Of a stretch of 64,000 nt of DNA, positions 15,591-38,274 are shown piece by piece; positions within the stretch are counted from its first letter, which is position 1; each line of letters opens with the position of its first letter. The stretch spans positions 3,183 through 67,182 of the forward strand of contig CALCZC010000016.1 of assembly GCA_937903605.1 (NCBI GenBank), written 5' to 3'. The translations under genes and the position numbers were made by a program. The notes beneath the pieces are model-generated. The model ran no database searches, was not told where the DNA came from, and saw only the letters and a program-made list of their open reading frames with translations. Source of the stretch: an uncultured bacterium (GTDB lineage: Bacteria > Patescibacteriota > Patescibacteriia > Magasanikbacterales > GWA2-37-8).

Positions 15591-15664
15591 TCCGAATTGC
15601 CCGACTTGAACGGGCGGCCTCCTGGACCCAAACCAGGCGCTCTGGCCAACTGAGCTAAATTCGG
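15591..15664 (-). tRNA. tRNA-Pro (anticodon UGG), 74 nt, no encoded CCA
   Basis: Cloverleaf folded by hand: acceptor CCGAATT/AATTCGG, D-stem GCTC/GAGC, anticodon stem CCTGG/CCAGG with loop TTTGGGT, T-stem GCCCG/CGGGC with loop TTCAAGT, discriminator A. Confidence 0.85.
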
Positions 15665-15689
15665 GCAATAGGTCCAATAAATATCTGCA

Positions 15690-16000
15690 AACATTTATCA
15701 GTAAATATTTATAAGTTTGCGAAGGAGGGCAAACAAATTATAAATAACCCTATTTTAAGTTTGGTCGAGGGGCCAAGACGACTACTCTTGGCTTCTAACA
15801 AGAGCTACTTGTTCGCATTCACATGTCTTTATGCTACTCCTCGATTTTTAAAGCAAGCGCGGCTGGAATCGGACCAACATTGGAGGAACCAAAACCGTCC
15901 CATCAAACTTATGAAAATCGTTTTAAGTGACTTTCTGTTGATTTCGCACTTCATCCAGACTGCGGTTGGACTCCATAGGATTCTCTCGTCTTACATTCTG
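15690..16000 (-). ncRNA. candidate TnpB omega-RNA (reRNA) region: 3' end of tnpB plus downstream right-end region; guide expected just 5' of the tRNA
   Basis: Positional inference from the known IS200/IS605 TnpB architecture; boundaries not determined. Confidence 0.3.
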
Positions 16001-17125
16001 TCCATGCGCGTTAATTCCCGTAGAACTTACGGTATAGTAATCCCTTATATTCTTTGAAGCATTCCAATCCCTGTTATCAATGTTTCCGCACTTCTCACAG
16101 TTATAAACTCGTTCATTCATTCCCAAAGTTTCTTTTACATTTCCACATTTATTGCATGTTTTAGAGGACGGATAGAAGCGTGGAACTTGAGCTAAAAGGA
16201 TTGAATTCCATTCAGTTTTATAACTGAGCTGTCTCCCGATTTCCGATAGGGAACTGTCGGCTAATGCTTGGGCTAACTTATGGTTCTGCATCATATTCTT
16301 TAAAGATAAATCTTCCATCATTATTACGCTTGGTTTGGTTTTCACTAAGCTCGTAGTGATTTTATGAAGATTATCCTTACGGGTATTGGATATTTTATAA
16401 TGAAGTTTTGCTACCCGTTTCCTTGATTGTTCTCGGCGGTTACTCCCCTTCTGCCTACGACTTAACTCTCGTTGAAAGCGTTTAAGTTTACGAAGATAAT
16501 ACTTCAATACCTTCGGATTATTAAAGATTTCATTATTGGAAGTATGAATTAGATTAGTAATTCCGAGGTCTATTCCGATGATTTCTCCTGTGGTTTGTTG
16601 TTCTGGGATTTCAAACTCAAAAGAAGTTGATATAAACCAATGCCCTGCTTTCTCTGAGATAACCACTGACTTTATTGGAAGGTTCGGAATGTAATCTTTT
16701 TCCTTTAAACGAATCCATCCAAGACGAGGAAGTTTAATCCTGCCCGATTCGATATGAAAACTTCCGTCAAGGTAGAATGAATTGGAACTTTTATGTTTGG
16801 ATTTGAACCTTGGAAATCCGGCTTTAATGCCTTTCTTCAAATCGCGGAAGAAGTTTTTGAATGCTCTGTCTACATTTCTTATCGCTTGCTGTGGAGCGCA
16901 TTTACTAACTTCATACATCCACGGAAATTCAGTTGCCTTCAATTCATTTAATATTTTATGCTGTTCAATGGGTGAGATTGATTTCTTTTCGGATTCATAA
17001 AGTTTAATTCGCTCATTCAATGCCCAGTTATAAGTAAATCGTGCCGTGCCCGAATGCTTTTTCAGTAACGTTTTTTGTTTATTATTCGGTTTCAATTCAA
17101 CCTTATAACTTTTGGATATCTTCAT
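15923..17125 (-). CDS. tnpB: TnpB (IS605 OrfB-family RNA-guided nuclease), catalytic triad apparently intact
   Basis: N-terminal KVELKPNNKQKTLL ... ARFTYNWAL; RuvC-I IGIDLGITN; RuvC-II MEDLS; zinc finger CNKCGN ... CEKCGN; RuvC-III NRDWNASKNI. Confidence 0.85.
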   Translation of the reverse strand: MKISKSYKVELKPNNKQKTLLKKHSGTARFTYNWALNERIKLYESEKKSISPIEQHKILNELKATEFPWMYEVSKCAPQQAIRNVDRAFKNFFRDLKKGIKAGFPRFKSKHKSSNSFYLDGSFHIESGRIKLPRLGWIRLKEKDYIPNLPIKSVVISEKAGHWFISTSFEFEIPEQQTTGEIIGIDLGITNLIHTSNNEIFNNPKVLKYYLRKLKRFQRELSRRQKGSNRREQSRKRVAKLHYKISNTRKDNLHKITTSLVKTKPSVIMMEDLSLKNMMQNHKLAQALADSSLSEIGRQLSYKTEWNSILLAQVPRFYPSSKTCNKCGNVKETLGMNERVYNCEKCGNIDNRDWNASKNIRDYYTVSSTGINAHGQNVRRENPMESNRSLDEVRNQQKVT

Positions 17126-27621: not shown

Positions 27622-27642
27622 ATGAAAGTGAGTGAGAAGTAA
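27622..27642 (+). other. 6-codon upstream mini-ORF MKVSEK whose TAA overlaps the next ATG (TAATG)
   Basis: atg aaa gtg agt gag aag taa tg. Confidence 0.4.
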
Positions 27643-28093: not shown

Positions 28094-28114
28094 ATGAAAG
28101 TGAGTGAAATATAA
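28094..28114 (+). other. second 6-codon mini-ORF MKVSEI, TAATG-coupled to the major capsid gene
   Basis: atg aaa gtg agt gaa ata taa tg; 16-nt identity with the copy at 27622. Confidence 0.4.
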
Positions 28115-29034
28115 TGAGAACCAATTACTTAACCAAAAGCGAAATCGCTAACGTAGAAAAAGTTATGGCGTCCCTTAAAAACGTCGTTAAAGACGCAGAT
28201 ACCGCTTCGTATGACGAACTGGTAAAAGCCGGCACGTTTGTAGTTAATGACTATATCGCAGAGAACCCCTCGCTGCTCGACCTTAGCTCGTTACTGTTTA
28301 ATCCTGGTCAGGTCAATGGCGACGTTCTTGATGTCGAAATCGGACATGGCGGCGTAGCGTACATGCATGCGATTGGTTCGCAGGCTGTACTGTCTCAGGC
28401 TTACATCGAAAGAGTTTCGACGAAAATGAACCGTTTTTCGTTCGCAAGCAAAATCGATGTTAACGCAGTTCGCACTCAGAATGTTGTAAAACTTCTGGAA
28501 GACGCTGCTGAAATCAGATTCAAACTTGGTCTGAAGAAATTCAGATACATATGGGACCTCGTAAAAGCTACGATAACCACTGGCGACCCGATATACATTT
28601 CGGCTGCTACCGTTAACAAAACTAACCTCGACTCGATAATGAACACTATGATGGACACTTCGGGTTCGGTTAAAGCGATAATCGGTCGCGAATCGCTTGT
28701 TACCCAGATAATGGGCTTCAGCGGATGGTCGGAAGTCACCCTGCGCGAAATCGAAACCGGCGTATTCGGTCAGTATCGTGGCGCTCGTCTCGTTGGTATC
28801 AAGAACTATGAAACCACCATCGTTGACGCAGCTGGCACCAAATTCGATACGGCTCAGATCCCTGCTGACCAGCTTATACTGCTCGGCGAAAAATGCGGTT
28901 ACGACGGCGAGAACCCCGTTCAGACGCTTGCTGGCACTGACGTTCTCCTCGGCGCAGAAGTAAAAAATACCTTCTTCGATTACGCTGCTATCATAGTAGA
29001 CGAAAAGAAGATAGGCGTTTACAACATCGCTTAA
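28114..29034 (+). CDS. major capsid protein
   Basis: 306 aa, follows the scaffold, strong terminator downstream. Confidence 0.55.
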   Translation: MRTNYLTKSEIANVEKVMASLKNVVKDADTASYDELVKAGTFVVNDYIAENPSLLDLSSLLFNPGQVNGDVLDVEIGHGGVAYMHAIGSQAVLSQAYIERVSTKMNRFSFASKIDVNAVRTQNVVKLLEDAAEIRFKLGLKKFRYIWDLVKATITTGDPIYISAATVNKTNLDSIMNTMMDTSGSVKAIIGRESLVTQIMGFSGWSEVTLREIETGVFGQYRGARLVGIKNYETTIVDAAGTKFDTAQIPADQLILLGEKCGYDGENPVQTLAGTDVLLGAEVKNTFFDYAAIIVDEKKIGVYNIA

Positions 29035-29069
29035 TTAACCTAACATAACGGACTCTATATCCGTAAAAC

Positions 29070-29105
29070 GGCTCACAGACATATTTCTGTGGGCTGTTTT
29101 TATTT
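29070..29105 (+). terminator. rho-independent terminator after the capsid gene
   Basis: GGCUCACAGA-cauauuu-UCUGUGGGCU (with G-U pairs) followed by GUUUUUAUUU. Confidence 0.55.
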
Positions 29106-29114
29106 AGAATTATC

Positions 29115-29143
29115 TTGACATTTATTAAATTGTTTGATAGGAT
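29115..29143 (+). promoter_or_regulatory. sigma-A promoter TTGACA-17-TAGGAT (TGn)
   Basis: Direct reading. Confidence 0.45.
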
Positions 29144-29183
29144 TGTATATGATAAAACAATTCACTTAAAGGAGTGTATCAAA

Positions 29184-29660
29184 ATGAGAGCATGGTCAGA
29201 TAGAAACCCCCATATAACTAAAGCACAGAAAAAATGGTATTTGTTTAATCCGGCGGCGGCAGAGCATGATATGATAGGTTTTGATAAGTTAGACGGACAG
29301 GGCAGTATAACTCTTGTGCCTGGCGATCTTATCGAACTAACTGAAATCGAGGTCGCGGCTAATATGCACCGTTCGATTATGAGAGATGGCACAGTAACTG
29401 TTATAGACGAGAAGAAGCTTAAACAGATGATGAATCCGACCTATAATGATGTTGCGGAAAATGTAGACTTCTCTGATGATAGTAATTTAGAAGCGCTTTT
29501 AATGTTAGACGATGTAGATTTTCTTAATAAAGTGGCTAATATTAAAAAGAAAACATTTCTCCGTAGAATCTATCAGATGATACAGGATGATAAATATAAA
29601 AAACTCTATAGTACGATTAAGCGCGTTAAGCAGTATGTGGATGAAGCGAAGGTGAGATAA
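29184..29660 (+). CDS. hypothetical protein (start trimmed to MRAWSD after AAAGGAGTG)
   Basis: ORF with SD. Confidence 0.45.
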   Translation: MRAWSDRNPHITKAQKKWYLFNPAAAEHDMIGFDKLDGQGSITLVPGDLIELTEIEVAANMHRSIMRDGTVTVIDEKKLKQMMNPTYNDVAENVDFSDDSNLEALLMLDDVDFLNKVANIKKKTFLRRIYQMIQDDKYKKLYSTIKRVKQYVDEAKVR

Positions 29661-29661
29661 C

Positions 29662-29844
29662 ATGGCTGGAGAATGGATTAAGGACGATAAATTCGTAAAA
29701 GAGAAATATGATACTACATCTAATACCAATAAACATTTTAAACAGATGTTTCCGACTTATGAATCGTTTTGTGAAAGTGTTCATCCCGCATTAAAGAAAC
29801 AGGAATCAGCGCCAGCAAATAAAGAGGGTGGAGATAAACAGTAG
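29662..29844 (+). CDS. hypothetical small protein
   Basis: ORF. Confidence 0.3.
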   Translation: MAGEWIKDDKFVKEKYDTTSNTNKHFKQMFPTYESFCESVHPALKKQESAPANKEGGDKQ

Positions 29845-29892
29845 ATAAATTAATGGACATAAATGAGTAATGAGTAATAAAGTGAGTATAAA

Positions 29893-31038
29893 ATGTTAAG
29901 AAGTTATAAAACAGAGATAAAGCCGTCAACAGAACAAAGAGAGAAAATAAATCGAACAATTGGAACGTGTCGATTCATTTATAACTTCTTTATAAAACAT
30001 AATAAAGAGCAATATCTTCAAACAAAGAAATTTGTTACCGGATATGATTTCTCAAAATATCTCAATAACGAGTTCATTCCTAACAATCCAGACTTTAAGT
30101 GGATAAAGGAAGTAAGTTCAAAAGCAGTAAAGCAATCGATAATGAATGCAGAACAGTCGTTTAAAAACTTCTTTAAAACGAAAAAAGGATTCCCTAAATT
30201 TAAAAAGAAACATAACTCGATAGTTAAAGTTTATCTTCCTAAAAATAGTGATACTGATTTGTTAGTTGAACGTCATAGAGTTAAAGTTCCAACGTTCGGA
30301 TGGATAAATTTAAAAGAAAAAGGATACATTCCAGTTGATAAGTTAGTTAAAAGTTGTCGTATCGAAAAGAAAGCGAATCGTTACTTCATCTCTGTACTTG
30401 TCGAAACGGGAGTTGAAATCAATTCCTCAAGCAATTCACTGAAGGGCATTGGAATCGATTTAGGGTTGAAAACCTTCGTAACTGTAAGTAATGGAGAAAC
30501 TTTTCCAAATATAAATAAAACAAGAGAAGTTAAAAAATTAGAAAGGAGAATAAAGTCGGATCAAAGGAAATTATCAAGGAAATTGAAAAATAAAAAGAAA
30601 GGAGAGTCTACTAAGAATATAGATAAGCAAAGGTTAAGATTACAGATAGCACATCAGAAACTTACGAACAAGAGACATGATTACTTGAATAAAGTTGTCA
30701 GGTCACTGGCGATAACCAAGCCAGCATTTATAACAATCGAAGATTTGAATGTAAGTGGTATGATGAAAAATAGGCATTTATCTCGCAGTATTGCATCCAT
30801 GAATTTCAGTAGATTTCGTAATCTATTAACCCAAAGGAGTAAAGTTAATTCTTTTGAGTTACGAATAGCAGATAGATTCTTCCCTTCCAGCAAGAAATGT
30901 TGTCAGTGTGGCAATATAAAGAAGGCATTAAGTTTGGCAGAAAGAATTTATGTCTGTGAAATTTGTGGAAACGAAATTGATAGGGATTTAAATGCTGCAA
31001 AGAATCTTGAAAAATTAGAAGTTTATCGAGTCGCGTAG
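29893..31038 (+). CDS. tnpB: TnpB (IS605 OrfB-family RNA-guided nuclease), second copy; about one-third identical to the first; catalytic residues present
   Basis: KTEIKPSTEQREKINRTIGTCRFIYN; IGIDLGLKTF; IEDLNVSGM; CCQCGN ... CEICGN; DRDLNAAKNL. Confidence 0.85.
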   Translation: MLRSYKTEIKPSTEQREKINRTIGTCRFIYNFFIKHNKEQYLQTKKFVTGYDFSKYLNNEFIPNNPDFKWIKEVSSKAVKQSIMNAEQSFKNFFKTKKGFPKFKKKHNSIVKVYLPKNSDTDLLVERHRVKVPTFGWINLKEKGYIPVDKLVKSCRIEKKANRYFISVLVETGVEINSSSNSLKGIGIDLGLKTFVTVSNGETFPNINKTREVKKLERRIKSDQRKLSRKLKNKKKGESTKNIDKQRLRLQIAHQKLTNKRHDYLNKVVRSLAITKPAFITIEDLNVSGMMKNRHLSRSIASMNFSRFRNLLTQRSKVNSFELRIADRFFPSSKKCCQCGNIKKALSLAERIYVCEICGNEIDRDLNAAKNLEKLEVYRVA

Positions 31039-31196
31039 CGATAAGATAAGAATACGGTGGGCTACATCGGAATTTAAGTCTGTGGACTGTTAAAAACCGT
31101 AGTAGATGGAAGCGATTCTTTCGAGGCGGAACAGAATGAAGCAGAAAACAATCTTAATATATTCATTAGTGTCTATATTTTAAGTAGCAGATAATA
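30950..31196 (+). ncRNA. candidate omega-RNA region of the second TnpB
   Basis: Positional inference; 158 nt of noncoding DNA lie between the tnpB stop and the next gene. Confidence 0.3.
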
Positions 31197-32423
31197 GTGG
31201 AGCAACAGACGAAAAGAAAAACTAAAGTATTATATGTAGGCGATTATAACCGCCCTACGGGATTTGGAGAAGTAAGCAAGAACCTATTACATCGTTGGAT
31301 GAATGATGACGAATTTGAATTTACAGTATTAGCATGTAATTATAATGGGCAGTCACCTGTTTATCCGGCACATTTCCCTGTTTATGCTTGCCATAGCGAT
31401 TATGCATTAAATGAGATAGCGCATGTATTTGATATAGTACAGCCAGATATTCTTATTACACTTAATGACGGCTATGTAATGCCGAGTTACGTGCGACAGC
31501 TCGGAGCTCGCCTTAATAACTGTTGGTGGATTGGATATGTTGTCTTTGATGGCACTCCTATTGCAAGATGGAGAGAGGCGCTTAAGCATATTGACTTAGT
31601 AGTATTTCCGACAGAATGGCAAGCGCAGGAAATGGCTAAAGTTATGCCTGATTTTAAGTGCGCCGTAGTAAGTCATGGCGTTAATTTAGATGTTTACAAA
31701 CCCGTGGAAAAGACCGGGATTAAACAATATAAAATGGCAGCACTTGGCGAAAAGAATGCAGACGCTTTTATATTTGGCATGATAGCGAAGAACTTTGAAC
31801 GCAAGAGATATCCAGAATTAATACAGGCTTTCGCTATATTCAAGTATAAGAGTGGCATTGAATTTAAGCGCAATCCAATGCTGATGTTGTATCAGACAAC
31901 GGAGCGTGGAGAATTTAACCTTGAAAACCTTGCTAAAATAGCAGGATGTAAAGATGGAGATGTTGCGATTATAACGGCTCCAGATAATCAAGGATTAACA
32001 GACAATGAAATGAATTTACTCTATAATTCGTTTGATGTTAACTGCCTTATCTCGATTGGCGAAGGATTTGGGTTGCCTACAATTAATGCGGCGGCTTGTG
32101 GCAAGTTAACAATGGCCATGAATAACTCAGTTCAGCCGTCACTTGCTAAATACTTTCCTATGTATTTAGTCCCTTGTGATAATCAATCTCCTGTGTGGTT
32201 CGGAAAAGATATGGAACAGATTCGTTTTATTCCAGATTGCAAGAAACTTGCACAGGCAATGTGCGAAGTATATGTTAAGATGAACGAACCTGGCTTCGCT
32301 GAACAGATTGCTAAAGAGGCAATGACAAGTGCTAAAGAATTTACTTGGGATATTATGGCAGATGATTTCATGTCATTGGTGAAGCCTTATGTTGGACAAT
32401 CCAAGAAGGCCCAGGTGATTTAA
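31197..32423 (+). CDS. GT4-family (GT-B) glycosyltransferase
   Basis: GEGFGLPTINAAACGK motif; GTG start. Confidence 0.55.
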   Translation: MEQQTKRKTKVLYVGDYNRPTGFGEVSKNLLHRWMNDDEFEFTVLACNYNGQSPVYPAHFPVYACHSDYALNEIAHVFDIVQPDILITLNDGYVMPSYVRQLGARLNNCWWIGYVVFDGTPIARWREALKHIDLVVFPTEWQAQEMAKVMPDFKCAVVSHGVNLDVYKPVEKTGIKQYKMAALGEKNADAFIFGMIAKNFERKRYPELIQAFAIFKYKSGIEFKRNPMLMLYQTTERGEFNLENLAKIAGCKDGDVAIITAPDNQGLTDNEMNLLYNSFDVNCLISIGEGFGLPTINAAACGKLTMAMNNSVQPSLAKYFPMYLVPCDNQSPVWFGKDMEQIRFIPDCKKLAQAMCEVYVKMNEPGFAEQIAKEAMTSAKEFTWDIMADDFMSLVKPYVGQSKKAQVI

Positions 32424-33529
32424 TGAATATACTTTGGATTTATGGACTCACTGAAAGCTCTGGATATGCAAGAAACTCAAGAGAGTTTATCAAGGCGCTC
32501 AATGCAAATGGCGTTACTACTAAGTTCTTAAGCCTTGGGCATAGCAAATACCCAGAGAAAGCAATAATGGGTAAATGGGAAGCGGAAACTGGTTATTCAT
32601 ATGATTTAGTAGTACAGAATTGTGTTCCTCCTGCGTTTAAAAAGTTCGGTAATAAAAAGAATATCTTAATGACCGTGGCAGAAACTGATAGCGTTTCTCA
32701 AGAATGGGTTAAATGCTGCAATACTGCGGATGAAGTATGGACTATGAGTTATTATAGTCAGGCAGCGTTTATTCATTCGGGAGTTACTGTTCCTGTAAGA
32801 GTCGTATTGATGCCGATTGATATTCAGGCGATACAAAGCGCCGGTCGTATTAAAAGCCCAGAGATAGCAGAGCAGCTTAATAAATTTAGAGCAAAATGTA
32901 GCTTTATTTTCATGGCAAATTCAGAATGGACTCCGCGCAAGGGATGGGACATCTTATTGCATTCTTTTTGTAAAGTATTCGCTCCATACGAAGACATCGG
33001 ATTAATGATTAAAACATGTTGTTTCTCTGGCGTTGAAACATCGCAATCTATGGCAAGATTAGTTAAACAGATTAAAGAGCAGTATGACGCGAAATGTCCT
33101 GTATTCATAATAAATGATGTTATGGATATTGAAGACGTATGGACGCTATATAAGTTCGCTGATGCGTTTGTATTGCCATCTCGTGGCGAGGGATGTGGTA
33201 TTCCATTTTTAGAAGCAATGTCCATGGGGTTGCCAACGGTAATGCCCTCTCACGGGGGTCAAGTGGACTATGCTAATGATATGCTTTGCACAAGGGTTAA
33301 GTCATATTTAAGGCCGGCCCATAGATTCCCTCATAATCCTAACTATGACGAAACAATGTTATGGATCGAGACGGACCAAAATGAGCTTTCAGATAAACTA
33401 ATGAGCGTTATAATGAATCATAATAAAGAAAGAAATGAGCTTGGCAGAGGTCAGTTCATAGAGACGTTTTCTTATGATGGAACTGCAATAAAAGATTTTA
33501 TCAAAATAGCGGAAGTGGTGATTAAATGA
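32423..33529 (+). CDS. GT4-family glycosyltransferase
   Basis: SRGEGCGIPFLEAMSMGLPTV (EX7E motif). Confidence 0.6.
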   Translation: MNILWIYGLTESSGYARNSREFIKALNANGVTTKFLSLGHSKYPEKAIMGKWEAETGYSYDLVVQNCVPPAFKKFGNKKNILMTVAETDSVSQEWVKCCNTADEVWTMSYYSQAAFIHSGVTVPVRVVLMPIDIQAIQSAGRIKSPEIAEQLNKFRAKCSFIFMANSEWTPRKGWDILLHSFCKVFAPYEDIGLMIKTCCFSGVETSQSMARLVKQIKEQYDAKCPVFIINDVMDIEDVWTLYKFADAFVLPSRGEGCGIPFLEAMSMGLPTVMPSHGGQVDYANDMLCTRVKSYLRPAHRFPHNPNYDETMLWIETDQNELSDKLMSVIMNHNKERNELGRGQFIETFSYDGTAIKDFIKIAEVVIK

Positions 33530-34674
33530 AATATATAATTTATGGAAATATTTATTCAGCAACATCGTTTTCAAATGTAATTCTTCATATGGCATACTAT
33601 TTAAGAAAATCTGGCAATGAGGTAGTTTTAAAATCAACCGAATTACTAAATGAACCTGAAGAGACGCTAATTGCTAAATATATGTCTCATATGCCCGATT
33701 CAAATGATTTATTAAAGAACTGCCTGTACAAAGACCAAAATGATTTTGATGTTGCTATATATTTCTTGGTCGATCCATTAGTCCATGCTCCAAATAAATC
33801 TATACGGGCCAAGAAACATATTTTCTATACTGTTTGGTCACATAATAACTATCCGATTAAATGGGCAGAAGCATTAAATCAGTATGATGAAGTATGGACT
33901 CCATCTCATGCTAATTCTGATGCCATTGTTAAAACTGGCAAGTGCAATAAACCTATTATTGTAATGCCACATGGATACGAACCATTGGTGTTTAATAATT
34001 TAGATAGGCATAAAAATAAGACATTTAAAATAGGCATGTGTAACTCTATATGCAACTTCAAGGGCGCTGATGTAGCCCTTGAGGCGTTTATGGAGTCATT
34101 CGATTATGGGGATGATGTTGAATTATGGCTTCAATCTACTGTGTCAGTAAGAAATAATCATGGTGATAAACATGGGCAATATTATAAAGAATACATTGAT
34201 ATACTGAATAAATATCCTGATAAGCAATTAAAAACATTCTATTATCAGAAAGACTGCAATATATCTGAAATGGCAGATTTTTATAGGTCATGTGATTTGA
34301 TATTATCTCCTCATCGTGGCGATGGATTTGGGCTTGTAGGGCTTGAAGCAATGGCATGTGGGGTTCCCGTTGTAATATCAAATTATCATGGGCCAAAAGA
34401 TTATATATCAGAGGCATATCCATATTGGTTGTGTGGCTCAATGGATTGGGTTAATCATTTTAGCAATAAACCGCATTGGCCTGATGGTGGCGATAAAGAA
34501 GAGATATACATGTTTTTCAATCCCGATAAAGAACATTTAAAAAAGATTCTATTGTCAGCTTATAGTGATTGGCAACATGATATAACATTGGAATGCAAAC
34601 AGTATTTTAAAGGACAATCATGGCAGAGCATAGTAGACTTTGTAGAGAGGTTGTGTAATGGAAAAAGTATTTAA
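33526..34674 (+). CDS. GT4-family glycosyltransferase
   Basis: HRGDGFGLVGLEAMACGVPVVISN. Confidence 0.6.
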   Translation: MKYIIYGNIYSATSFSNVILHMAYYLRKSGNEVVLKSTELLNEPEETLIAKYMSHMPDSNDLLKNCLYKDQNDFDVAIYFLVDPLVHAPNKSIRAKKHIFYTVWSHNNYPIKWAEALNQYDEVWTPSHANSDAIVKTGKCNKPIIVMPHGYEPLVFNNLDRHKNKTFKIGMCNSICNFKGADVALEAFMESFDYGDDVELWLQSTVSVRNNHGDKHGQYYKEYIDILNKYPDKQLKTFYYQKDCNISEMADFYRSCDLILSPHRGDGFGLVGLEAMACGVPVVISNYHGPKDYISEAYPYWLCGSMDWVNHFSNKPHWPDGGDKEEIYMFFNPDKEHLKKILLSAYSDWQHDITLECKQYFKGQSWQSIVDFVERLCNGKSI

Positions 34675-35290
34675 TGATATATTTTTGTATAAAGGATGGC
34701 AGGGGGAGGGGACAATTTCTGGCCCTGGCTCTACAATCGAAGCAACCAAAAATATTCGAAGATTCTTATCTAACCTTGGACAGATAAATATTATTGATTG
34801 TCCTTGTGGGGATTTTAATTGGATGAAGTTAGTGGCTGAAAAATTTAATAACTATTATGGCATAGATATTGTAAAGGATATTATCAATAATAACAATAAG
34901 AGATATTCAAAAGATAATATTTACTTTATACATGGAAGCCTTGATAATTATGATTTTTCGACCATTAATGCTGAATATATGCTAATACGAGACTGCCTAG
35001 TACATATGTCGCTTCAAGACATTATATCTGTCTTTAAAAATATTATAAAAAGTAATGCTAAAAAAATAATGATAACGCATTTTAATGATAATAGATTATT
35101 TAAAGACATTAATACTGGCGAATGGCGTCCTATAAATTTTTGTATGCCTCCATTTAATTTTCCGTCTCCACATTATTTACTTAACGAAGAGTGCAAGGAG
35201 TGCAATGGCATATTCGCAGACAAATCCATTGGAGTATGGGATATGCAAGTAATTAAAGATTTTATTGCAAAATATGATAAAATAAAGTAA
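34658..35290 (+). CDS. class I SAM-dependent methyltransferase-like protein
   Basis: IIDCPCGDFNWM (motif I-like) and YGIDIV (motif II-like). Confidence 0.45.
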   Translation: MEKVFNDIFLYKGWQGEGTISGPGSTIEATKNIRRFLSNLGQINIIDCPCGDFNWMKLVAEKFNNYYGIDIVKDIINNNNKRYSKDNIYFIHGSLDNYDFSTINAEYMLIRDCLVHMSLQDIISVFKNIIKSNAKKIMITHFNDNRLFKDINTGEWRPINFCMPPFNFPSPHYLLNEECKECNGIFADKSIGVWDMQVIKDFIAKYDKIK

Positions 35291-35313
35291 AATACATATG
35301 GAAGGTGATTTAA

Positions 35314-35883
35314 GTGAAAATATCAGTAATTACTTTTAAGGATAATATTTTAGACATTCTTGACGCTAGACGTCAATTTAAATATGACCATATCGAAGTT
35401 TATGCTCCCGCAGAAAAAGAACGCGCGTTTCGCAAACAGGCCAAAGGATCAGACGTAAGAATTAAGTTCTTGCATGAGCTGATGTATGGCAATGATATTC
35501 TGGTCTTTATTGGCTGCACAACTGATTTTATACAGAACAATATTACCAAAGGCAAAGAAGTATTAATGACCAACGATAAGGTTATTGCAGTTGGTGCGAA
35601 AGAAGTGCTTGGACCTTATATGATTGGTGGCGTATCTTATTTTAAATTTAAGCCTCTTCAGATTCTTACTAAGCCGATAGAGGTAAAGTCTGAGATAAAA
35701 ATTGAGCCAGTTAAGATAGAGATTCCTATTGAAGTTTCTATTGAAAAAATAGTTGAAGTTGGGCCTATTAAGGCTATTGTCGAAGAGCCTAAAAAAGAGG
35801 AAATTGTTATTAAGGCTGAAGCTCCTATTGAACCTCCCGTTGCAGAAGTTAAAAAGATTCTGCCCAAAAGGGGCAGAAGATAA
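35314..35883 (+). CDS. hypothetical protein with a P/E/K/I-rich repetitive tail ending KRGRR
   Basis: ORF; low-complexity (PIEV/KIE)n. Confidence 0.4.
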   Translation: MKISVITFKDNILDILDARRQFKYDHIEVYAPAEKERAFRKQAKGSDVRIKFLHELMYGNDILVFIGCTTDFIQNNITKGKEVLMTNDKVIAVGAKEVLGPYMIGGVSYFKFKPLQILTKPIEVKSEIKIEPVKIEIPIEVSIEKIVEVGPIKAIVEEPKKEEIVIKAEAPIEPPVAEVKKILPKRGRR

Positions 35884-36413
35884 TGAACAAGTTTGATAAG
35901 TATTGTGGTATGCATGCGTGGATTCCTGCGCCAAACTTATCAAATGGATTTCATGGGATTCTCTTTCAATATATTAAAGAATATTATCAAGATAGAAATT
36001 CGTTGCTTATGATTGCAGAGAATGATAATGTAAATAATATATTTGAAAGAGAGTTTCGCAATATTTCGATTAACAATAACTCATATTCGGGAAGTAAGGG
36101 CGAGCAGTTTATCGACTTGAATATAAAATTAAATTGGGAGTCTAAATTTGATTTTGTATTAAGTCAGGCTTTATTAGAACATGTCTGCCGCCCATGTATT
36201 GCTTTAGAGAATATGGTTGATGCGACGAAGATAGGCGGCAAAATAATAATACATACTCAAAATGCCCAGATGGGATATCATGCCGTACCGATTGACTGTT
36301 TAAGGTTTTTTAAAGATTGGTTTGTTGATATGCAAAAATATCTTCCAATTAAGTTAATTGCATGGAACGAATTTGGGCCACATTTGTTTTGCATGTATGA
36401 AAGGATTAATTAA
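35883..36413 (+). CDS. methyltransferase-like (FkbM/class I-like) protein
   Basis: FDFVLSQALLEHV ... GGKIIIHT; weak. Confidence 0.3.
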   Translation: MNKFDKYCGMHAWIPAPNLSNGFHGILFQYIKEYYQDRNSLLMIAENDNVNNIFEREFRNISINNNSYSGSKGEQFIDLNIKLNWESKFDFVLSQALLEHVCRPCIALENMVDATKIGGKIIIHTQNAQMGYHAVPIDCLRFFKDWFVDMQKYLPIKLIAWNEFGPHLFCMYERIN

Positions 36414-37144
36414 TGAACATTGCGGTTATAATGTGTTATTGTGGTAGGAATGAGAGATGGCTCTATCAATCAATATGCTCGTTAAAATCAGAGAAACATA
36501 ATGTTGATGTTTATTTGCATTTAGACGGATGTCAGAGGCCAGTTTCTTTTGTGTTTGCCGATAATATTAAAGTTGTTCAATCGCCATCTCGCTTAGGTTA
36601 CGCGAATGGCATTAATAAATGTGTTCTTGCAATCGCCCAGTCTGGCAAACATTATGATTATATTGCTCGAATGGATGATGATGATGTTAGCGCTGATGAT
36701 AGATTGGATAAACAAGTTGAGTTTTTAGAGCAGAACAAAAATATTGATTTTTGCGGTTGCTTGCTTACTGTTATTGATGATGCAGGAAAAGTAACGGATA
36801 ATACATGGATGGCCCAAGCAAATAATGGAATTGATTGGTCAACTCGTTTTTTAAATGGTGGTTGTTATATTGCCAATGGCACTGTAATGTTCAGATCAAA
36901 AATATTATATGAGGGACACCTTTGGTATAATCCATTGTATCTTGTAATTGAAGATTATGAACTATGGTTTAGATTATTTCGACAGGGTTATAGATACGAT
37001 GTAGTTCCAGAAAGATTGTATTTGTATAGAGTTCACGCTGGACAAGAAACACAAAGGCATTCAGAGCATAATAAGAAAATGGCAATGGCAGATGAGATAC
37101 ATCAGTTTTATGTAAAGAATTGGAGCAAGTTTTTAGTAAAATGA
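36413..37144 (+). CDS. GT2-family (GT-A) glycosyltransferase
   Basis: DxD cluster ARMDDDDVSADD and the EDYELWFRL motif. Confidence 0.55.
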   Translation: MNIAVIMCYCGRNERWLYQSICSLKSEKHNVDVYLHLDGCQRPVSFVFADNIKVVQSPSRLGYANGINKCVLAIAQSGKHYDYIARMDDDDVSADDRLDKQVEFLEQNKNIDFCGCLLTVIDDAGKVTDNTWMAQANNGIDWSTRFLNGGCYIANGTVMFRSKILYEGHLWYNPLYLVIEDYELWFRLFRQGYRYDVVPERLYLYRVHAGQETQRHSEHNKKMAMADEIHQFYVKNWSKFLVK

Positions 37145-38274
37145 GCAAAGAGCAAGAAGAAATAGATATTATAAATAAATTCGTCCAGCGTCATAAGGTC
37201 GAAGGGAATACTCCATTTAGTTATGGGAAGATATTTCATCACTTAGATGTTTTACATGAAATAAAACATCGTCCAGAAGACGTATGTCCCGTAACTCTGG
37301 AATTACATTTGACAAATAAGTGTTCGCATAATTGCTTATTCTGTATGTATAAAAAAGAGATAAGAGAAAGCAATATTTGTTCGGCAGAGATTCCGTTTGA
37401 TATAGCTGAATCTATAATAGACGATGCTGCAAGAATGGGAGTTAAGGCAATTACTTATAGCGGTGGAGGGGAGCCGACATTACACCCTCAGTTTAAAGCT
37501 ATATCTACGATTGGCAGTGACTATTCAATAGACCAGGGGTTAATTACTAATGGAAGTATGCTGCATCACAAAGATATATGTGAACATATTGTAAATAATT
37601 TTAAATGGGTTCGCATATCTGTTGATGCCGGTTCGGATTCAGTATATAAAATATTGCATGGCAACTGTTGTGATTTTAGCAAAACAATAGACGGAATTAA
37701 GCAATTATGCGTTATAAATAACAATAGAATCAAAATAGGCATTTCCTTTTTATTGACATCATTTAATTCTTGTGATATGATTAAATTGTATGATATTTTG
37801 TCTTCCATTGGCGTTGATTACCTACAGATAAAGCCCATGATTATGTCTAAAAATCAAAAAAGCATACATAACAATTATATTACACAGGCAATCGTAGATG
37901 ATATTGAGACGCTAATACAGAAGGCAGAGAAAGACAATAAGATAAAAGTATATGTATTATTCGACCAGTTTAAAAATATTATAGGCAACGAACATACTTT
38001 TGATAAATGCCATGGACATGCGTTATATCCAGTTATATCGGCGATACAGGAAATCTTTGTCTGCTGCATGCATTTACATAATGACTCAATGAAATATGGA
38101 AAAATAACTAAAAATAATTCGTTTTATGATATATGGCGTAGTAAAAAAAGATTCCAGATTGGCGACAACATTGATTTAAGCAAATGCCCAAAATTATGCC
38201 GATTGGCGAAGACAAATAACATTTTAGACATGATAGATAAAACTACTAATTTAGATATTAATTTTTTAAATTAA
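37120..38274 (+). CDS. radical SAM enzyme with C-terminal Cys-rich (SPASM/twitch-like) extension
   Basis: CSHNCLFC (CX3CX2C), SGGGEPTLHP glycine motif; C-terminal CHGH ... CC ... C ... C. Confidence 0.65.
   Translation: MEQVFSKMSKEQEEIDIINKFVQRHKVEGNTPFSYGKIFHHLDVLHEIKHRPEDVCPVTLELHLTNKCSHNCLFCMYKKEIRESNICSAEIPFDIAESIIDDAARMGVKAITYSGGGEPTLHPQFKAISTIGSDYSIDQGLITNGSMLHHKDICEHIVNNFKWVRISVDAGSDSVYKILHGNCCDFSKTIDGIKQLCVINNNRIKIGISFLLTSFNSCDMIKLYDILSSIGVDYLQIKPMIMSKNQKSIHNNYITQAIVDDIETLIQKAEKDNKIKVYVLFDQFKNIIGNEHTFDKCHGHALYPVISAIQEIFVCCMHLHNDSMKYGKITKNNSFYDIWRSKKRFQIGDNIDLSKCPKLCRLAKTNNILDMIDKTTNLDINFLN

What the first reader, a model, noticed from the sequence alone, without database searches (positions are those of the whole stretch)
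29845..31196. Intact TnpB nuclease embedded in the late structural operon and carrying the phage's own translation leader
The second tnpB keeps all RuvC and zinc-finger residues and is co-oriented with the capsid and glycosylation genes. About 10 nt upstream of its start it carries the same AAAGTGAGT leader motif found before the 146-aa capsid-associated gene and the major capsid gene. It leaves only 158 nt before the first GT gene, which is room for an omega-RNA whose guide would derive from the GT 5' flank. This looks like a TnpB that is expressed with late genes and is possibly domesticated, for homing, inter-phage competition or as the vehicle that delivered the island, rather than a silent IS remnant.
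Basis: partly seen in the sequence, partly recalled or inferred. Interest (0 to 1): 0.62.

Follow-up and report, generated by a model that had tools for sequence, protein, structure and literature searches.

The report
IS607 TnpB element splitting a phage gene's ribosome site
This is an ordinary mobile insertion sequence that has lost its transposase but keeps an intact RNA-guided nuclease (TnpB) and its known guide RNA (RAGATH-18), and it landed between the ribosome-binding site and the start codon of a phage glycosyltransferase gene, rather than being a nuclease the phage has recruited.

Summary
Window 29893-31038 encodes an intact 381-aa TnpB. It is 54% identical to the solved IS607 nuclease ISFba1 (PDB 8IAZ), with RuvC D189/E283/D365 and both CxxC pairs present. 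A RAGATH-18 RNA, the known IS607 guide-RNA core, lies 41 nt after the stop codon.

Alignment with copies elsewhere defines a discrete 1357-bp element, 29834-31190. The left end follows TGGAG and the right end is ...AAGTAGCAG. The predicted guide, ATAATAGTGGAGCAACAGAC, contains the GTG start of the first glycosyltransferase (GT1).

Related phages have the same capsid-to-GT synteny without the element. Removing it restores a Shine-Dalgarno site plus 6 nt plus GTG, and the homologous tail of a small upstream protein.

The GT island therefore predates the element. The AAAGTGAGT "leader" lies inside the element and recurs in copies elsewhere. Co-orientation follows from a family rule: at 70 of 94 distinct sites the right end lies 3-13 nt before a start codon.

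No TnpA was found. The likely function is the known TnpB homing into element-free copies, which is inferred, not shown. This is a new member of a known kind, and domestication is not supported.

The parts
29824..29833 (+). GAGGGTGGAG, the original Shine-Dalgarno of GT1. Its last five bases, TGGAG (29829-29833), are the TAM-like flank abutting the left end.
   Evidence: Removing 29834-31190 gives ...GAGGGTGGAG-ATAATA-GTG. This aligns with the SD + 5-7 nt + start arrangement of GT1 in the related phages L086, L088 and L091. In other copies the left-end flank is NGGAG. The published TAM of IS607 TnpBs is AGGAG or GAGGG (PMC11061315).
29834..29892 (+). Left end of the IS607-family element (59 nt). 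It holds three direct repeats (A/G)TGAGTA at 29863, 29870 and 29882. The third repeat overlaps the AAAGTGAGT 'leader' (29879-29887).
   Evidence: Homology with L002, L003 and L004 starts here and the flanks are unrelated. Both junctions share AGATAA, so the boundary is ambiguous by up to 4 nt, but the length of 1357 bp is fixed. Directly repeated motifs in IS607 ends are described in PMC6188088. That these particular repeats bind TnpA is inference.
29893..31038 (+). tnpB, 381 aa, an RNA-guided RuvC nuclease of the IS607 clade
   Evidence: Pfam architecture. 8IAZ match with E 1.6e-123 and 54% identity. D189/E283/D365 and two CxxC pairs are intact. dN/dS is 0.08-0.11 against the 71-84% identical relatives.
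31039..31190 (+). reRNA (omega RNA) scaffold and right end. The RAGATH-18 core is at 31079-31147, and the terminus is ...TTTTAAGTAGCAG.
   Evidence: Rfam RF03064 at 50.3 bits, above the gathering score of 44.9. Conservation across 5 copies stops exactly at GCAG. Of 24 consensus pairs, 11 covary across 13 copies, and the window row, read off the printed alignment, forms a standard pair at each. The region is 86-91% identical to relatives, against 74-82% for the CDS, with dS about 1.1.
31191..31210 (+). Predicted guide ATAATAGTGGAGCAACAGAC. It is flanking phage DNA transcribed after the scaffold and includes the GT1 start codon GTG at 31197.
   Evidence: The position follows the family architecture, with the guide directly 3' of the scaffold and 20 nt optimal (PMC11061315). 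The window holds no second target. The self site is preceded by AGCAG rather than NGGAG. Expression and length were not measured.
31197..32423 (+). GT1, the first GT4 glycosyltransferase, now separated from its Shine-Dalgarno by the element
   Evidence: Pfam Glycos_transf_1. The GTG start and N-terminus align with GT1 of L086, L088 and L091. The sequence now upstream of the start, AAGTAGCAGATAATA, has no SD.
29662..29844 (+). Small ORF (60 aa) whose C-terminal tail was replaced by the insertion
   Evidence: The reconstructed ORF has 68 aa and ends ...NKEGGDNSGATDEKKN*. This is homologous to ...NKEGSDGNGTKKD* in relatives, where the ORF overlaps the GT1 start.
29065..29143 (+). Context: a terminator hairpin after the capsid gene (29065-29100), then the promoter-like site TTGACA-17-TAGGAT (29115-29143) that probably drives the unit containing the element
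   Evidence: Fold energy -26 kcal/mol with z -6.4. Promoter scan scores 10 of 12 with a TG extension. The true start of the next gene is ATG 29184, preceded by AAAGGAG. Function is inferred.
27624..27635 (+). Phage leader GAAAGTGAGTGA before the 146-aa gene. A second copy lies at 28096-28107 before the capsid gene.
   Evidence: Both copies are conserved as an exact 12-mer in the related phages L086, L088, L089 and L091; L087 holds only the copy before the capsid gene, because the contig starts inside the 147-aa gene. This leader is not part of the element and is listed because the finding invoked it.

Best explanation
Window 29834-31190 is a 1357-bp, TnpA-less (non-autonomous) IS607-family insertion sequence. 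It consists of a 59-nt left end, an intact tnpB and a RAGATH-18-type guide RNA (reRNA) gene that ends at the right terminus.

It inserted in this phage lineage right after the GGAG of the GT1 Shine-Dalgarno, 6 nt before the GT1 GTG start. This is the position that this IS family occupies at most of its sites.

The element is read in the same direction as the surrounding genes. Transcription probably comes from the promoter-like site at 29115. TnpB is translated from the element's own SD-like AAAGTGAGT.

TnpB would bind the reRNA, whose 3' guide is the first ~20 nt of flanking DNA (ATAATAGTGGAGCAACAGAC). By analogy with characterised IS607 and IS605 TnpBs, the complex would cleave a copy of the phage genome that lacks the element, where TGGAG is joined directly to that sequence. 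Recombination with an element-bearing genome would then copy the element in, either as retention after excision or as homing during co-infection.

Shown here: the anatomy, the boundaries, the empty sites in relatives, the intact catalytic residues, and the conserved and covarying reRNA. Inferred: expression, cleavage, TAM tolerance for T at position -5, homing, and the effect on GT1 translation.
For: - Protein: domain architecture, a 54% identical solved homologue and intact catalytic residues.
- RNA: RAGATH-18 above the gathering score, with conserved and covarying flanks.
- Boundaries: the right-end boundary is shared by 5 copies, and the left end lies 59-62 nt after GGAG in 4 contexts.
- Mobile unit: similarity to L002, L003 and L004 is confined to window 29853-31190.
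- Empty sites: six contigs of related phages (L086-L091, three distinct sequences) are syntenic from the capsid genes (L090 only from the gene after them) into the GT island and carry no tnpB.
- Reconstruction: precise removal restores SD + 6 nt + GTG and the homologous tail of the 68-aa protein.
- Family rule: the right end is followed 3-13 nt later by a start codon at 32 of 47 viral sites and 38 of 47 bacterial sites, against 12% for random positions. The left-end flank is NGGAG in 10 of 10 cases where the motif was not required by the search.
- Selection: dN/dS is 0.08-0.11, and the reRNA is more conserved than the CDS.
- Published biochemistry: IS607 TnpB with RAGATH-18 reRNA is a TAM-dependent (AGGAG or GAGGG) RNA-guided DNase (PMC11061315). 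IS607 TnpB drives homing into empty donor joints, and the right end differs from the TAM by one base, which prevents self-cleavage (PMC10690162). Here the right end reads AGCAG against NGGAG.
Against: - The flank is TGGAG, not AGGAG. In ISFba1 any single TAM change abolished cleavage, so this copy may be unable to cut its own empty site unless its specificity differs. Its residue at the contact for position -5 is Ser, not Asn.
- No TnpA was found in the window, so excision, and therefore restorative homing, may never occur.
- No near-identical element-free phage was found.
- The 3' flank of the reRNA is 41 nt, against 64 nt in ISFba1, and activity of this short class was not checked.
- The single-sequence fold energy is not better than shuffles (z 0.2).
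- There are no expression data.
Confidence: 0.85

Rival explanations
1. The TnpB-reRNA has been taken over by the phage. It would be expressed late through a capsid-type leader and used as a weapon or gene drive against co-infecting relatives, or to modulate GT1, with the nuclease tuned to the phage's own TGGAG site.
For: - The 9-mer AAAGTGAGT is shared with the two capsid-gene leaders, all just upstream of ATGs.
- The close TnpB clade (71-84% identity) was seen only on metagenomic contigs, at least one of them phage-like (L004 carries an Amidase_2 gene). It is absent from 185,579 species genomes, where the best match is 59%.
- Only the window copy in its clade has N to S at the residue that contacts TAM position -5, and only it has T at -5. 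Two other TGGAG-flanked copies also lack Asn there.
- TnpB and the reRNA are under purifying selection.
Against: - The motif is inside the element and predates this insertion: L003 has it exactly and L002 has it with 1 mismatch.
- The phage's conserved motif is a 12-mer that the tnpB leader matches at only 9 positions.
- The ends, the flank and the insertion position are those of ordinary mobile copies.
- The related phages on record differ from the guide throughout the seed, so they would not be targets.
- A KNG variant with an AGGAG flank (L118) breaks the residue-to-TAM correlation.
- Selection was measured across the clade, not in this phage.
Confidence: 0.1
2. The element is a silent passenger. 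It would be a stranded copy that is neither expressed usefully nor able to cut anything, because of its non-consensus TAM and missing TnpA. Its main effect would be to damage GT1 translation and to truncate the small upstream protein.
For: - The flank is TGGAG, and ISFba1 is strictly intolerant of TAM changes.
- No TnpA is present in the window.
- GT1 has lost its SD, and the 68-aa ORF has lost 10 residues.
- No element-free sibling was detected.
Against: - There is no inactivating change in tnpB or in any reRNA pair.
- TGGAG and GGGAG flanks occur at other natural copies, so position -5 is tolerant at least for insertion.
- GT1 and the downstream GT genes remain intact ORFs.
Confidence: 0.1
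3. The element is an IStron-like or nuclease-dead regulatory derivative. It would either be spliced out of the mRNA by a group I intron or act as a TldR-type RNA-guided repressor.
For: IS607-family IStrons exist in Clostridia, and TldR repressors are phage-encoded (PMC10690162). The element does sit inside a 5' UTR.
Against: - No intron or ribozyme family matches 29000-32000 even at E <= 1.
- Only 59 nt precede tnpB, which is too short for a group I ribozyme.
- The RuvC triad is intact, unlike in TldR.
- The window holds no TAM plus target site for DNA binding.
Confidence: 0.02

Closest known systems
ISFba1 TnpB with its RAGATH-18-derived reRNA (IS607 family; Ren et al., Cell Res 2024, PMC11061315; PDB 8IAZ)
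   Same: The protein has the same architecture and is 54% identical. The RuvC triad, the zinc finger and 7 of the 8 listed TAM or heteroduplex contact residues are conserved. A RAGATH-18 core lies downstream of the stop codon with conserved 5' and 3' flanks. The guide follows directly after the scaffold. The flank is G-rich and of the NGGAG type.
   Different: No TnpA is present. The reRNA 3' flank is 41 nt against 64 nt, so the distance from stop codon to right end is 152 nt against 187 nt. Position -5 of the TAM is T instead of A, and its contact residue is Ser119 instead of Asn122. The element sits in a phage genome. Activity was not tested.
ISCbt4 of Clostridium botulinum phage c-st (AP008983, annotated OrfA + OrfB)
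   Same: It has the closest annotated phage-borne TnpB (55% identity). It belongs to the same short reRNA class (151 nt), has the same right terminus ...GAGTAGCAG, and a start codon lies 7 nt after the right end.
   Different: ISCbt4 keeps its serine-recombinase OrfA. The window element has the left end fused directly to tnpB.
CboIStron and other IS607 TnpB homing systems (Zedaveinyte et al., PMC10690162)
   Same: The element belongs to a serine-recombinase family. The TAM equals the TnpA target. The last bases of the scaffold repeat the end of the TAM, and one mismatch in the right end (AGCAG against NGGAG here, TCGG against TGGG there) protects the occupied site. The proposed role is to cut the empty site and copy the element back.
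   Different: There is no group I intron here. The TAM differs (NGGAG against TGGG). There is no TnpA, so only non-restorative homing between genomes is conceivable.
Free-standing homing endonucleases of T-even phages (SegF, SegB, Mob)
   Same: If active, the element would bias its own inheritance and that of flanking markers during mixed infection by cutting the element-free allele.
   Different: Recognition would be RNA-guided, and self is distinguished from non-self by the presence or absence of the element. This is an analogy only, and nothing here tests it.

Membership tests
IS607-family TnpB / RAGATH-18 reRNA (OMEGA) element | TnpB protein with an N-terminal HTH, an OrfB_IS605 (RuvC) domain and a C-terminal zinc-ribbon domain | tested here: met
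   Pfam PF12323, PF01385 and PF07282 all score above their cut-offs.
IS607-family TnpB / RAGATH-18 reRNA (OMEGA) element | Intact RuvC D-E-D triad and two CxxC pairs | tested here: met
   D189, E283 and D365 align with ISFba1 D194, E290 and D371. The cysteines are C336/C339 and C355/C358.
IS607-family TnpB / RAGATH-18 reRNA (OMEGA) element | Sequence membership in the IS607 TnpB clade rather than the IS200/IS605 clade | tested here: met
   The match to 8IAZ (ISFba1) has E 1.6e-123, against 5.7e-44 for ISDra2 TnpB. The closest annotated relative, ISCbt4, has a resolvase-type OrfA.
IS607-family TnpB / RAGATH-18 reRNA (OMEGA) element | RAGATH-18 motif directly downstream of tnpB on the same strand | tested here: met
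   RF03064 matches 31079-31147 (+) at 50.3 bits, above the gathering score of 44.9, over the full model.
IS607-family TnpB / RAGATH-18 reRNA (OMEGA) element | Conserved, structured 5' and 3' flanking motifs completing the scaffold | tested here: met
   Of 24 consensus pairs, 11 covary in 13 copies, and the window row, read off the printed alignment, forms a standard pair at each. The 3' flank is shorter than in ISFba1 but matches the ISCbt4 class.
IS607-family TnpB / RAGATH-18 reRNA (OMEGA) element | TAM (AGGAG or GAGGG) abutting the left end | tested here: inconclusive
   The flank is TGGAG, which matches at 4 of 5 positions. Natural flanks in relatives are AGGAG (most), GGGAG and TGGAG. Cleavage specificity was not measured.
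IS607-family TnpB / RAGATH-18 reRNA (OMEGA) element | Same dinucleotide at both junctions and no target-site duplication, the serine-recombinase signature | tested here: inconclusive
   AG is present at both junctions (GGAG| and GCAG|). In the window, however, the identity extends to AGATAA, in L002 to AGTAGT and in L004 to AGGCA, which is unexplained.
IS607-family TnpB / RAGATH-18 reRNA (OMEGA) element | Adjacent tnpA encoding a serine recombinase (needed for autonomous copies) | tested here: not met
   tnpB starts 59 nt after the left end. tblastn with four IS607 TnpA sequences finds nothing better than E 0.29 in the window. The published survey finds that about 20% of such loci lack TnpA, so this makes the copy non-autonomous rather than a non-member.
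IS607-family TnpB / RAGATH-18 reRNA (OMEGA) element | reRNA-guided, TAM-dependent dsDNA cleavage | not testable with these tools
   This needs biochemistry or an interference assay.
TldR-type domesticated TnpB repressor | Loss of RuvC catalytic residues, with a guide matching a promoter elsewhere | tested here: not met
   The triad is intact. The guide has no second match in the window.
IStron (IS + group I intron) | Group I ribozyme at the 5' end of the element | tested here: not met
   No intron family matches 29000-32000 at E <= 1. The left end is only 59 nt long.

The most novel reading that the evidence does not exclude
The element would be more than a stranded passenger. A phage-restricted TnpB clade would act as an RNA-guided gene drive between co-infecting phages. 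It would cut element-free siblings at the GT1 ribosome-binding site, with the TAM-reading residue changed (N to S) to fit this phage's TGGAG. Its AAAGTGAGT leader would have converged on the capsid-gene leader to give late, high expression.
Probability: 0.12. Interest if true: 0.6.

Novelty: new member of a known kind. Interest (0 to 1): 0.3.

Why it matters
For this window, the result removes a tempting story. The nuclease was not recruited by the phage and did not deliver the glycosylation island. It is a recognisable IS607/RAGATH-18 element, and its position and orientation follow from where this family inserts.

Two by-products may be of wider use.

First, across 94 independent sites in phages and bacteria these elements sit between a Shine-Dalgarno sequence and the start codon (74% against 12% background). 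Their known AGGAG TAM is in effect the ribosome-binding site. Every such insertion is therefore co-transcribed with a gene, strips that gene of its SD and puts the gene's start codon into the guide. I found no statement of this in the searchable literature. It raises a testable question: how are the downstream genes still translated?

Second, the phage group has a strictly conserved GAAAGTGAGTGA leader on its two capsid genes, and its function is unknown.

Tried and rejected
- Near-identical phage in the GenBank phage set: megablast gave only 45-bp matches inside the tnpB genes of Staphylococcus phages.
- Relatives of GT1 and of the 158-aa protein in IMG/VR: none useful.
- Look-up of contigs encoding the identical TnpB (P0001): not on record.
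- Exact 20-mer scan for the reconstructed empty site: 3 hits in JGI metagenomes and 0 in IMG/VR. The hits have unrelated flanks and no tblastx similarity, so they are chance matches.
- IS607 TnpA anywhere in the window: none.
- Single-sequence folding of the reRNA: no better than shuffles (z 0.2), so the case rests on covariation instead.
- Link between the residue at ISFba1 position 122 and TAM position -5: 3 of 3 TGGAG copies lack Asn, but a KNG/AGGAG copy (L118) and a KTD/AGGAG copy exist, and a wider automated survey returned too few rows. The result is inconclusive. The left flank of the other KNS protein (P0006) is cut off by the contig end.
- Descent of the leader from the tnpA 3' end (GTAAGTATAAAA): the alignment is ambiguous, so no such claim is made.
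- RAGATH-18 downstream of the other tnpB (15923-17125, minus strand): none even at E <= 5.
- A conserved mini-ORF in the right end that could couple translation to GT1, checked by eye on the sequences printed: present in the window only and not in L002, so dropped.
- Literature searches linking the IS607 TAM to ribosome-binding sites: nothing found.
Full report
**What is there**

The ORF at 29893-31038 (+) encodes a 381-aa protein with the three Pfam domains of TnpB: HTH_OrfB_IS605, OrfB_IS605 and Cas12f1-like_TNB. Its best solved relative is chain 8IAZ_A (E 1.6e-123, 54% identity). ISDra2 TnpB scores far lower (E 5.7e-44). 8IAZ is the ISFba1 IS607 TnpB bound to its RAGATH-18-derived RNA and target DNA (PMC11061315).

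Mapping the published functional residues gives D189, E283 and D365 for the RuvC triad. The zinc-finger pairs are C336/C339 and C355/C358. All listed TAM and heteroduplex contacts are conserved except N122, which is Ser119 here. The second tnpB in the window (15923-17125, minus strand) is only 39% identical and belongs to a different type.

**The guide RNA**

Rfam places a full-length RAGATH-18 match at 31079-31147 (+), at 50.3 bits against a gathering score of 44.9. This is 41 nt after the tnpB stop. RAGATH-18 is the core of the reRNA (omega RNA) of IS607 TnpBs. In ISFba1 the scaffold starts 13 nt after the stop and is followed directly by the guide.

An alignment of 13 copies gives a consensus fold with 24 pairs, 11 of which show compensatory changes. 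The window sequence, read off that alignment, keeps every pair. The 152-nt stop-to-terminus region is 86-91% identical to the closest relatives. The CDS is 74-82% identical and synonymous divergence is about 1.1, so the RNA is under strong constraint. The 3' flank of the scaffold is 41 nt rather than 64 nt, as in ISCbt4 and several other copies, which form a short class. The fold energy of the single sequence is not informative.

**Boundaries**

The closest TnpBs (84, 82 and 71% identity) lie on metagenomic contigs L003, L002 and L004. By tblastx they resemble the window only between 29853 and 31190.

Downstream, five copies including ISCbt4 of phage c-st stay alignable up to ...T(T/A)(A/G)AGTAGCAG and diverge immediately after it. 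In the window that right end is 31190. Upstream, all four stand-alone copies have GGAG 59-62 nt before the ATG. In the window it ends at 29833.

The element is therefore 29834-31190, 1357 bp. Both junctions share AGATAA, so the cut points can slide by a few bases, but the length and the empty-site sequence do not change. No TnpA is encoded: the left end runs straight into tnpB, and tblastn with four IS607 TnpAs finds nothing in the window.

**Empty sites**

GT1 homologues of 57-66% identity lie on contigs L086-L091. These contigs reproduce the window's gene order. The longest of them (L088, L091) run from the 592-aa and ~614-aa (613-614-aa) proteins (628 aa in the window) through the 146/147-aa protein, the 306-aa capsid protein, a 156-aa protein and a 63-66-aa protein into GT1 and GT2; the shorter ones cover only part of that order. 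None has a tnpB.

Deleting 29834-31190 from the window gives ...AAAGAGGGTGGAG-ATAATA-GTGGAGCAA.... This is a Shine-Dalgarno, a 6-nt spacer and the GTG start, and it matches the arrangement in the relatives. The same deletion extends the 60-aa ORF to 68 aa, ending ...NKEGGDNSGATDEKKN*. That tail is homologous to the tails in the relatives (...NKEGSDGNGTKKD*) and overlaps the GT1 start as theirs do.

The GT island therefore predates the element. The element is an insertion that cut off the small protein's tail and separated GT1 from its ribosome-binding site.

**Why it sits there and points that way**

The published TAM of these TnpBs is AGGAG (18 of 22) or GAGGG (4 of 22). In IS607 elements the TAM equals the TnpA target.

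I took 47 distinct right-end flanks from IMG/VR loci and the first loci fetched. In 32 of them the start codon of an ORF of at least 50 aa lies 3-13 nt after the terminus. In 47 distinct sites from species-representative bacterial genomes the figure is 38. Random positions in the same loci give 12%. Left-end flanks are NGGAG in 10 of 10 cases found without requiring that motif. The counts are AGGAG 7, GGGAG 3 and TGGAG 2 in a related sample, whose search did require GGAG.

The family therefore sits, as a rule, between a Shine-Dalgarno and its start codon and in the gene's orientation. The window copy simply follows that rule. The pattern may arise from target preference, or from AGGAG sites outside genes being mostly ribosome-binding sites combined with purging of intragenic insertions. 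My counts cannot separate the two.

**The leader motif**

AAAGTGAGT does occur three times, and each copy ends 5-8 nt before an ATG. Two of the copies belong to a longer phage motif, GAAAGTGAGTGA, which precedes the 146-aa gene and the capsid gene. It is conserved as an exact 12-mer in the related phages: at both genes in L086, L088, L089 and L091, and at the capsid gene alone in L087, whose contig starts inside the 147-aa gene. It is a real phage feature.

The third copy lies inside the element's left end. It matches only 9 of the 12 positions. It is present exactly in L003 and with one mismatch in L002, both in unrelated contexts. It aligns with the GAAGGAGAT Shine-Dalgarno region of tnpB in other family members. 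It is also the third unit of a triple direct repeat (A/G)TGAGTA in the left end, and IS607 ends are known to carry directly repeated motifs.

The motif was therefore brought by the element. Both sequences read like AAAGGAG with the core disturbed, so convergence on a similar initiation signal is possible, and adaptation to the phage cannot be excluded. The clade of 70% identity or more was not found in 185,579 species genomes or in IMG/VR. That absence is compatible with a phage-borne lineage but does not show one.

**Expression context**

A strong hairpin with a U-run follows the capsid gene (29065-29100). A TTGACA-17-TAGGAT site with a TG extension follows at 29115-29143. The next gene really starts at ATG 29184. 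No terminator-like site lies between there and GT1. Co-transcription of tnpB and the reRNA with the GT unit is thus plausible but inferred.

**Mechanism and its weak points**

By homology, TnpB-reRNA should cut TGGAG + ATAATAGTGGAGCAACAGAC, which is the element-free allele. The occupied site is protected because the right end reads AGCAG. The window has no other target. The relatives on record differ from the guide throughout, so only near-isogenic element-free phages could be hit. None was found, and the three exact 20-mer hits are chance matches.

The T at TAM position -5 is a real concern, because ISFba1 tolerates no TAM change. Three TGGAG-flanked copies carry S, C or G at the contact residue while their AGGAG-flanked relatives carry N. 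Exceptions exist, so this correlation stays inconclusive.

How GT1, and the many bacterial genes in the same situation, are translated without their Shine-Dalgarno is unexplained.

**Verdict**

This is a new member of a known kind: a non-autonomous IS607-family TnpB/RAGATH-18 element in a novel phage. RAGATH-18 and transposase genes have already been annotated in virulent Staphylococcus phages, and TnpB relatives are common in phage records. Domestication, acquisition of a phage leader and delivery of the island are not supported. Homing remains the default inferred function.

Noticed in passing
Loci L001-L071 and L096-L175; in the window, 31190/31197: RAGATH-18-type IS607 elements sit between a Shine-Dalgarno (NGGAG flank) and the start codon. 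At 70 of 94 distinct sites an ORF start lies 3-13 nt (most often 7 in the genome set, 7-8 in the viral set) after the right end, against 12% for random positions. I found no mention of this in the searchable literature. How the downstream genes keep being translated is unclear.
   Followed up: partly
Window 27624-27635 and 28096-28107; L086, L088, L089 and L091 at the homologous positions (L087 at the capsid gene only): The 12-mer GAAAGTGAGTGA lies 5-6 nt before the ATG of the 146/147-aa gene and of the 306-aa capsid gene. It is strictly conserved in relatives whose GT1 proteins are only 57-66% identical to the window's (capsid region about 78-85% by tblastx). It reads like the extended Shine-Dalgarno AAAGGAGGTGA with the GGAG core replaced. 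Its function (translation signal, late promoter or regulator site) is unknown.
   Followed up: partly
Window 29828-29839 and 31185-31196; L002 and L004 junctions: Junction identity extends beyond the expected 2-nt crossover: AGATAA at both junctions in the window, AGTAGT in L002 and AGGCA in L004, but only AG in L003. This is too frequent to be chance and is not expected for a serine-recombinase element without target duplication. It remains unexplained.
   Followed up: no
Window 29893-31038, codon 119 (AGT): The residue that contacts TAM position -5 in ISFba1 (N122) is Ser in the window only, within its clade, and only the window has T at -5. Two other TGGAG-flanked copies have Cys or Gly there. 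Counter-examples exist (L118 KNG with AGGAG, L018 KTD with AGGAG).
   Followed up: partly
Window 15591-17125 (minus strand): A second, 400-aa TnpB (39% identical) has no RAGATH-18 downstream, even at E <= 5. It is followed about 258 nt later by a tRNA-Pro(UGG) gene on the same strand. Its ends and guide RNA were not defined.
   Followed up: partly
Window 29065-29190: A strong terminator hairpin follows the capsid gene and is itself followed by a sigma-70-like promoter. The listed 181-aa TTG ORF really starts at ATG 29184 (158 aa), as in the relatives.
   Followed up: yes
Window 31197-38274 compared with L086, L088 and L091: The glycosylation island between the capsid and tail genes is syntenic in relatives, but its content varies. 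L088 and L091 carry an NAD-dependent epimerase after GT2 that the window lacks. The window and L086 carry a different set of methyltransferase-like genes and a radical-SAM gene.
   Followed up: no
L004 and L086 (both from sample SRR30949865): A 71% identical copy of the element, next to an Amidase_2 gene, and a related phage with an empty GT1 site occur in the same metagenome. The element lineage and this phage group therefore co-occur in nature.
   Followed up: no
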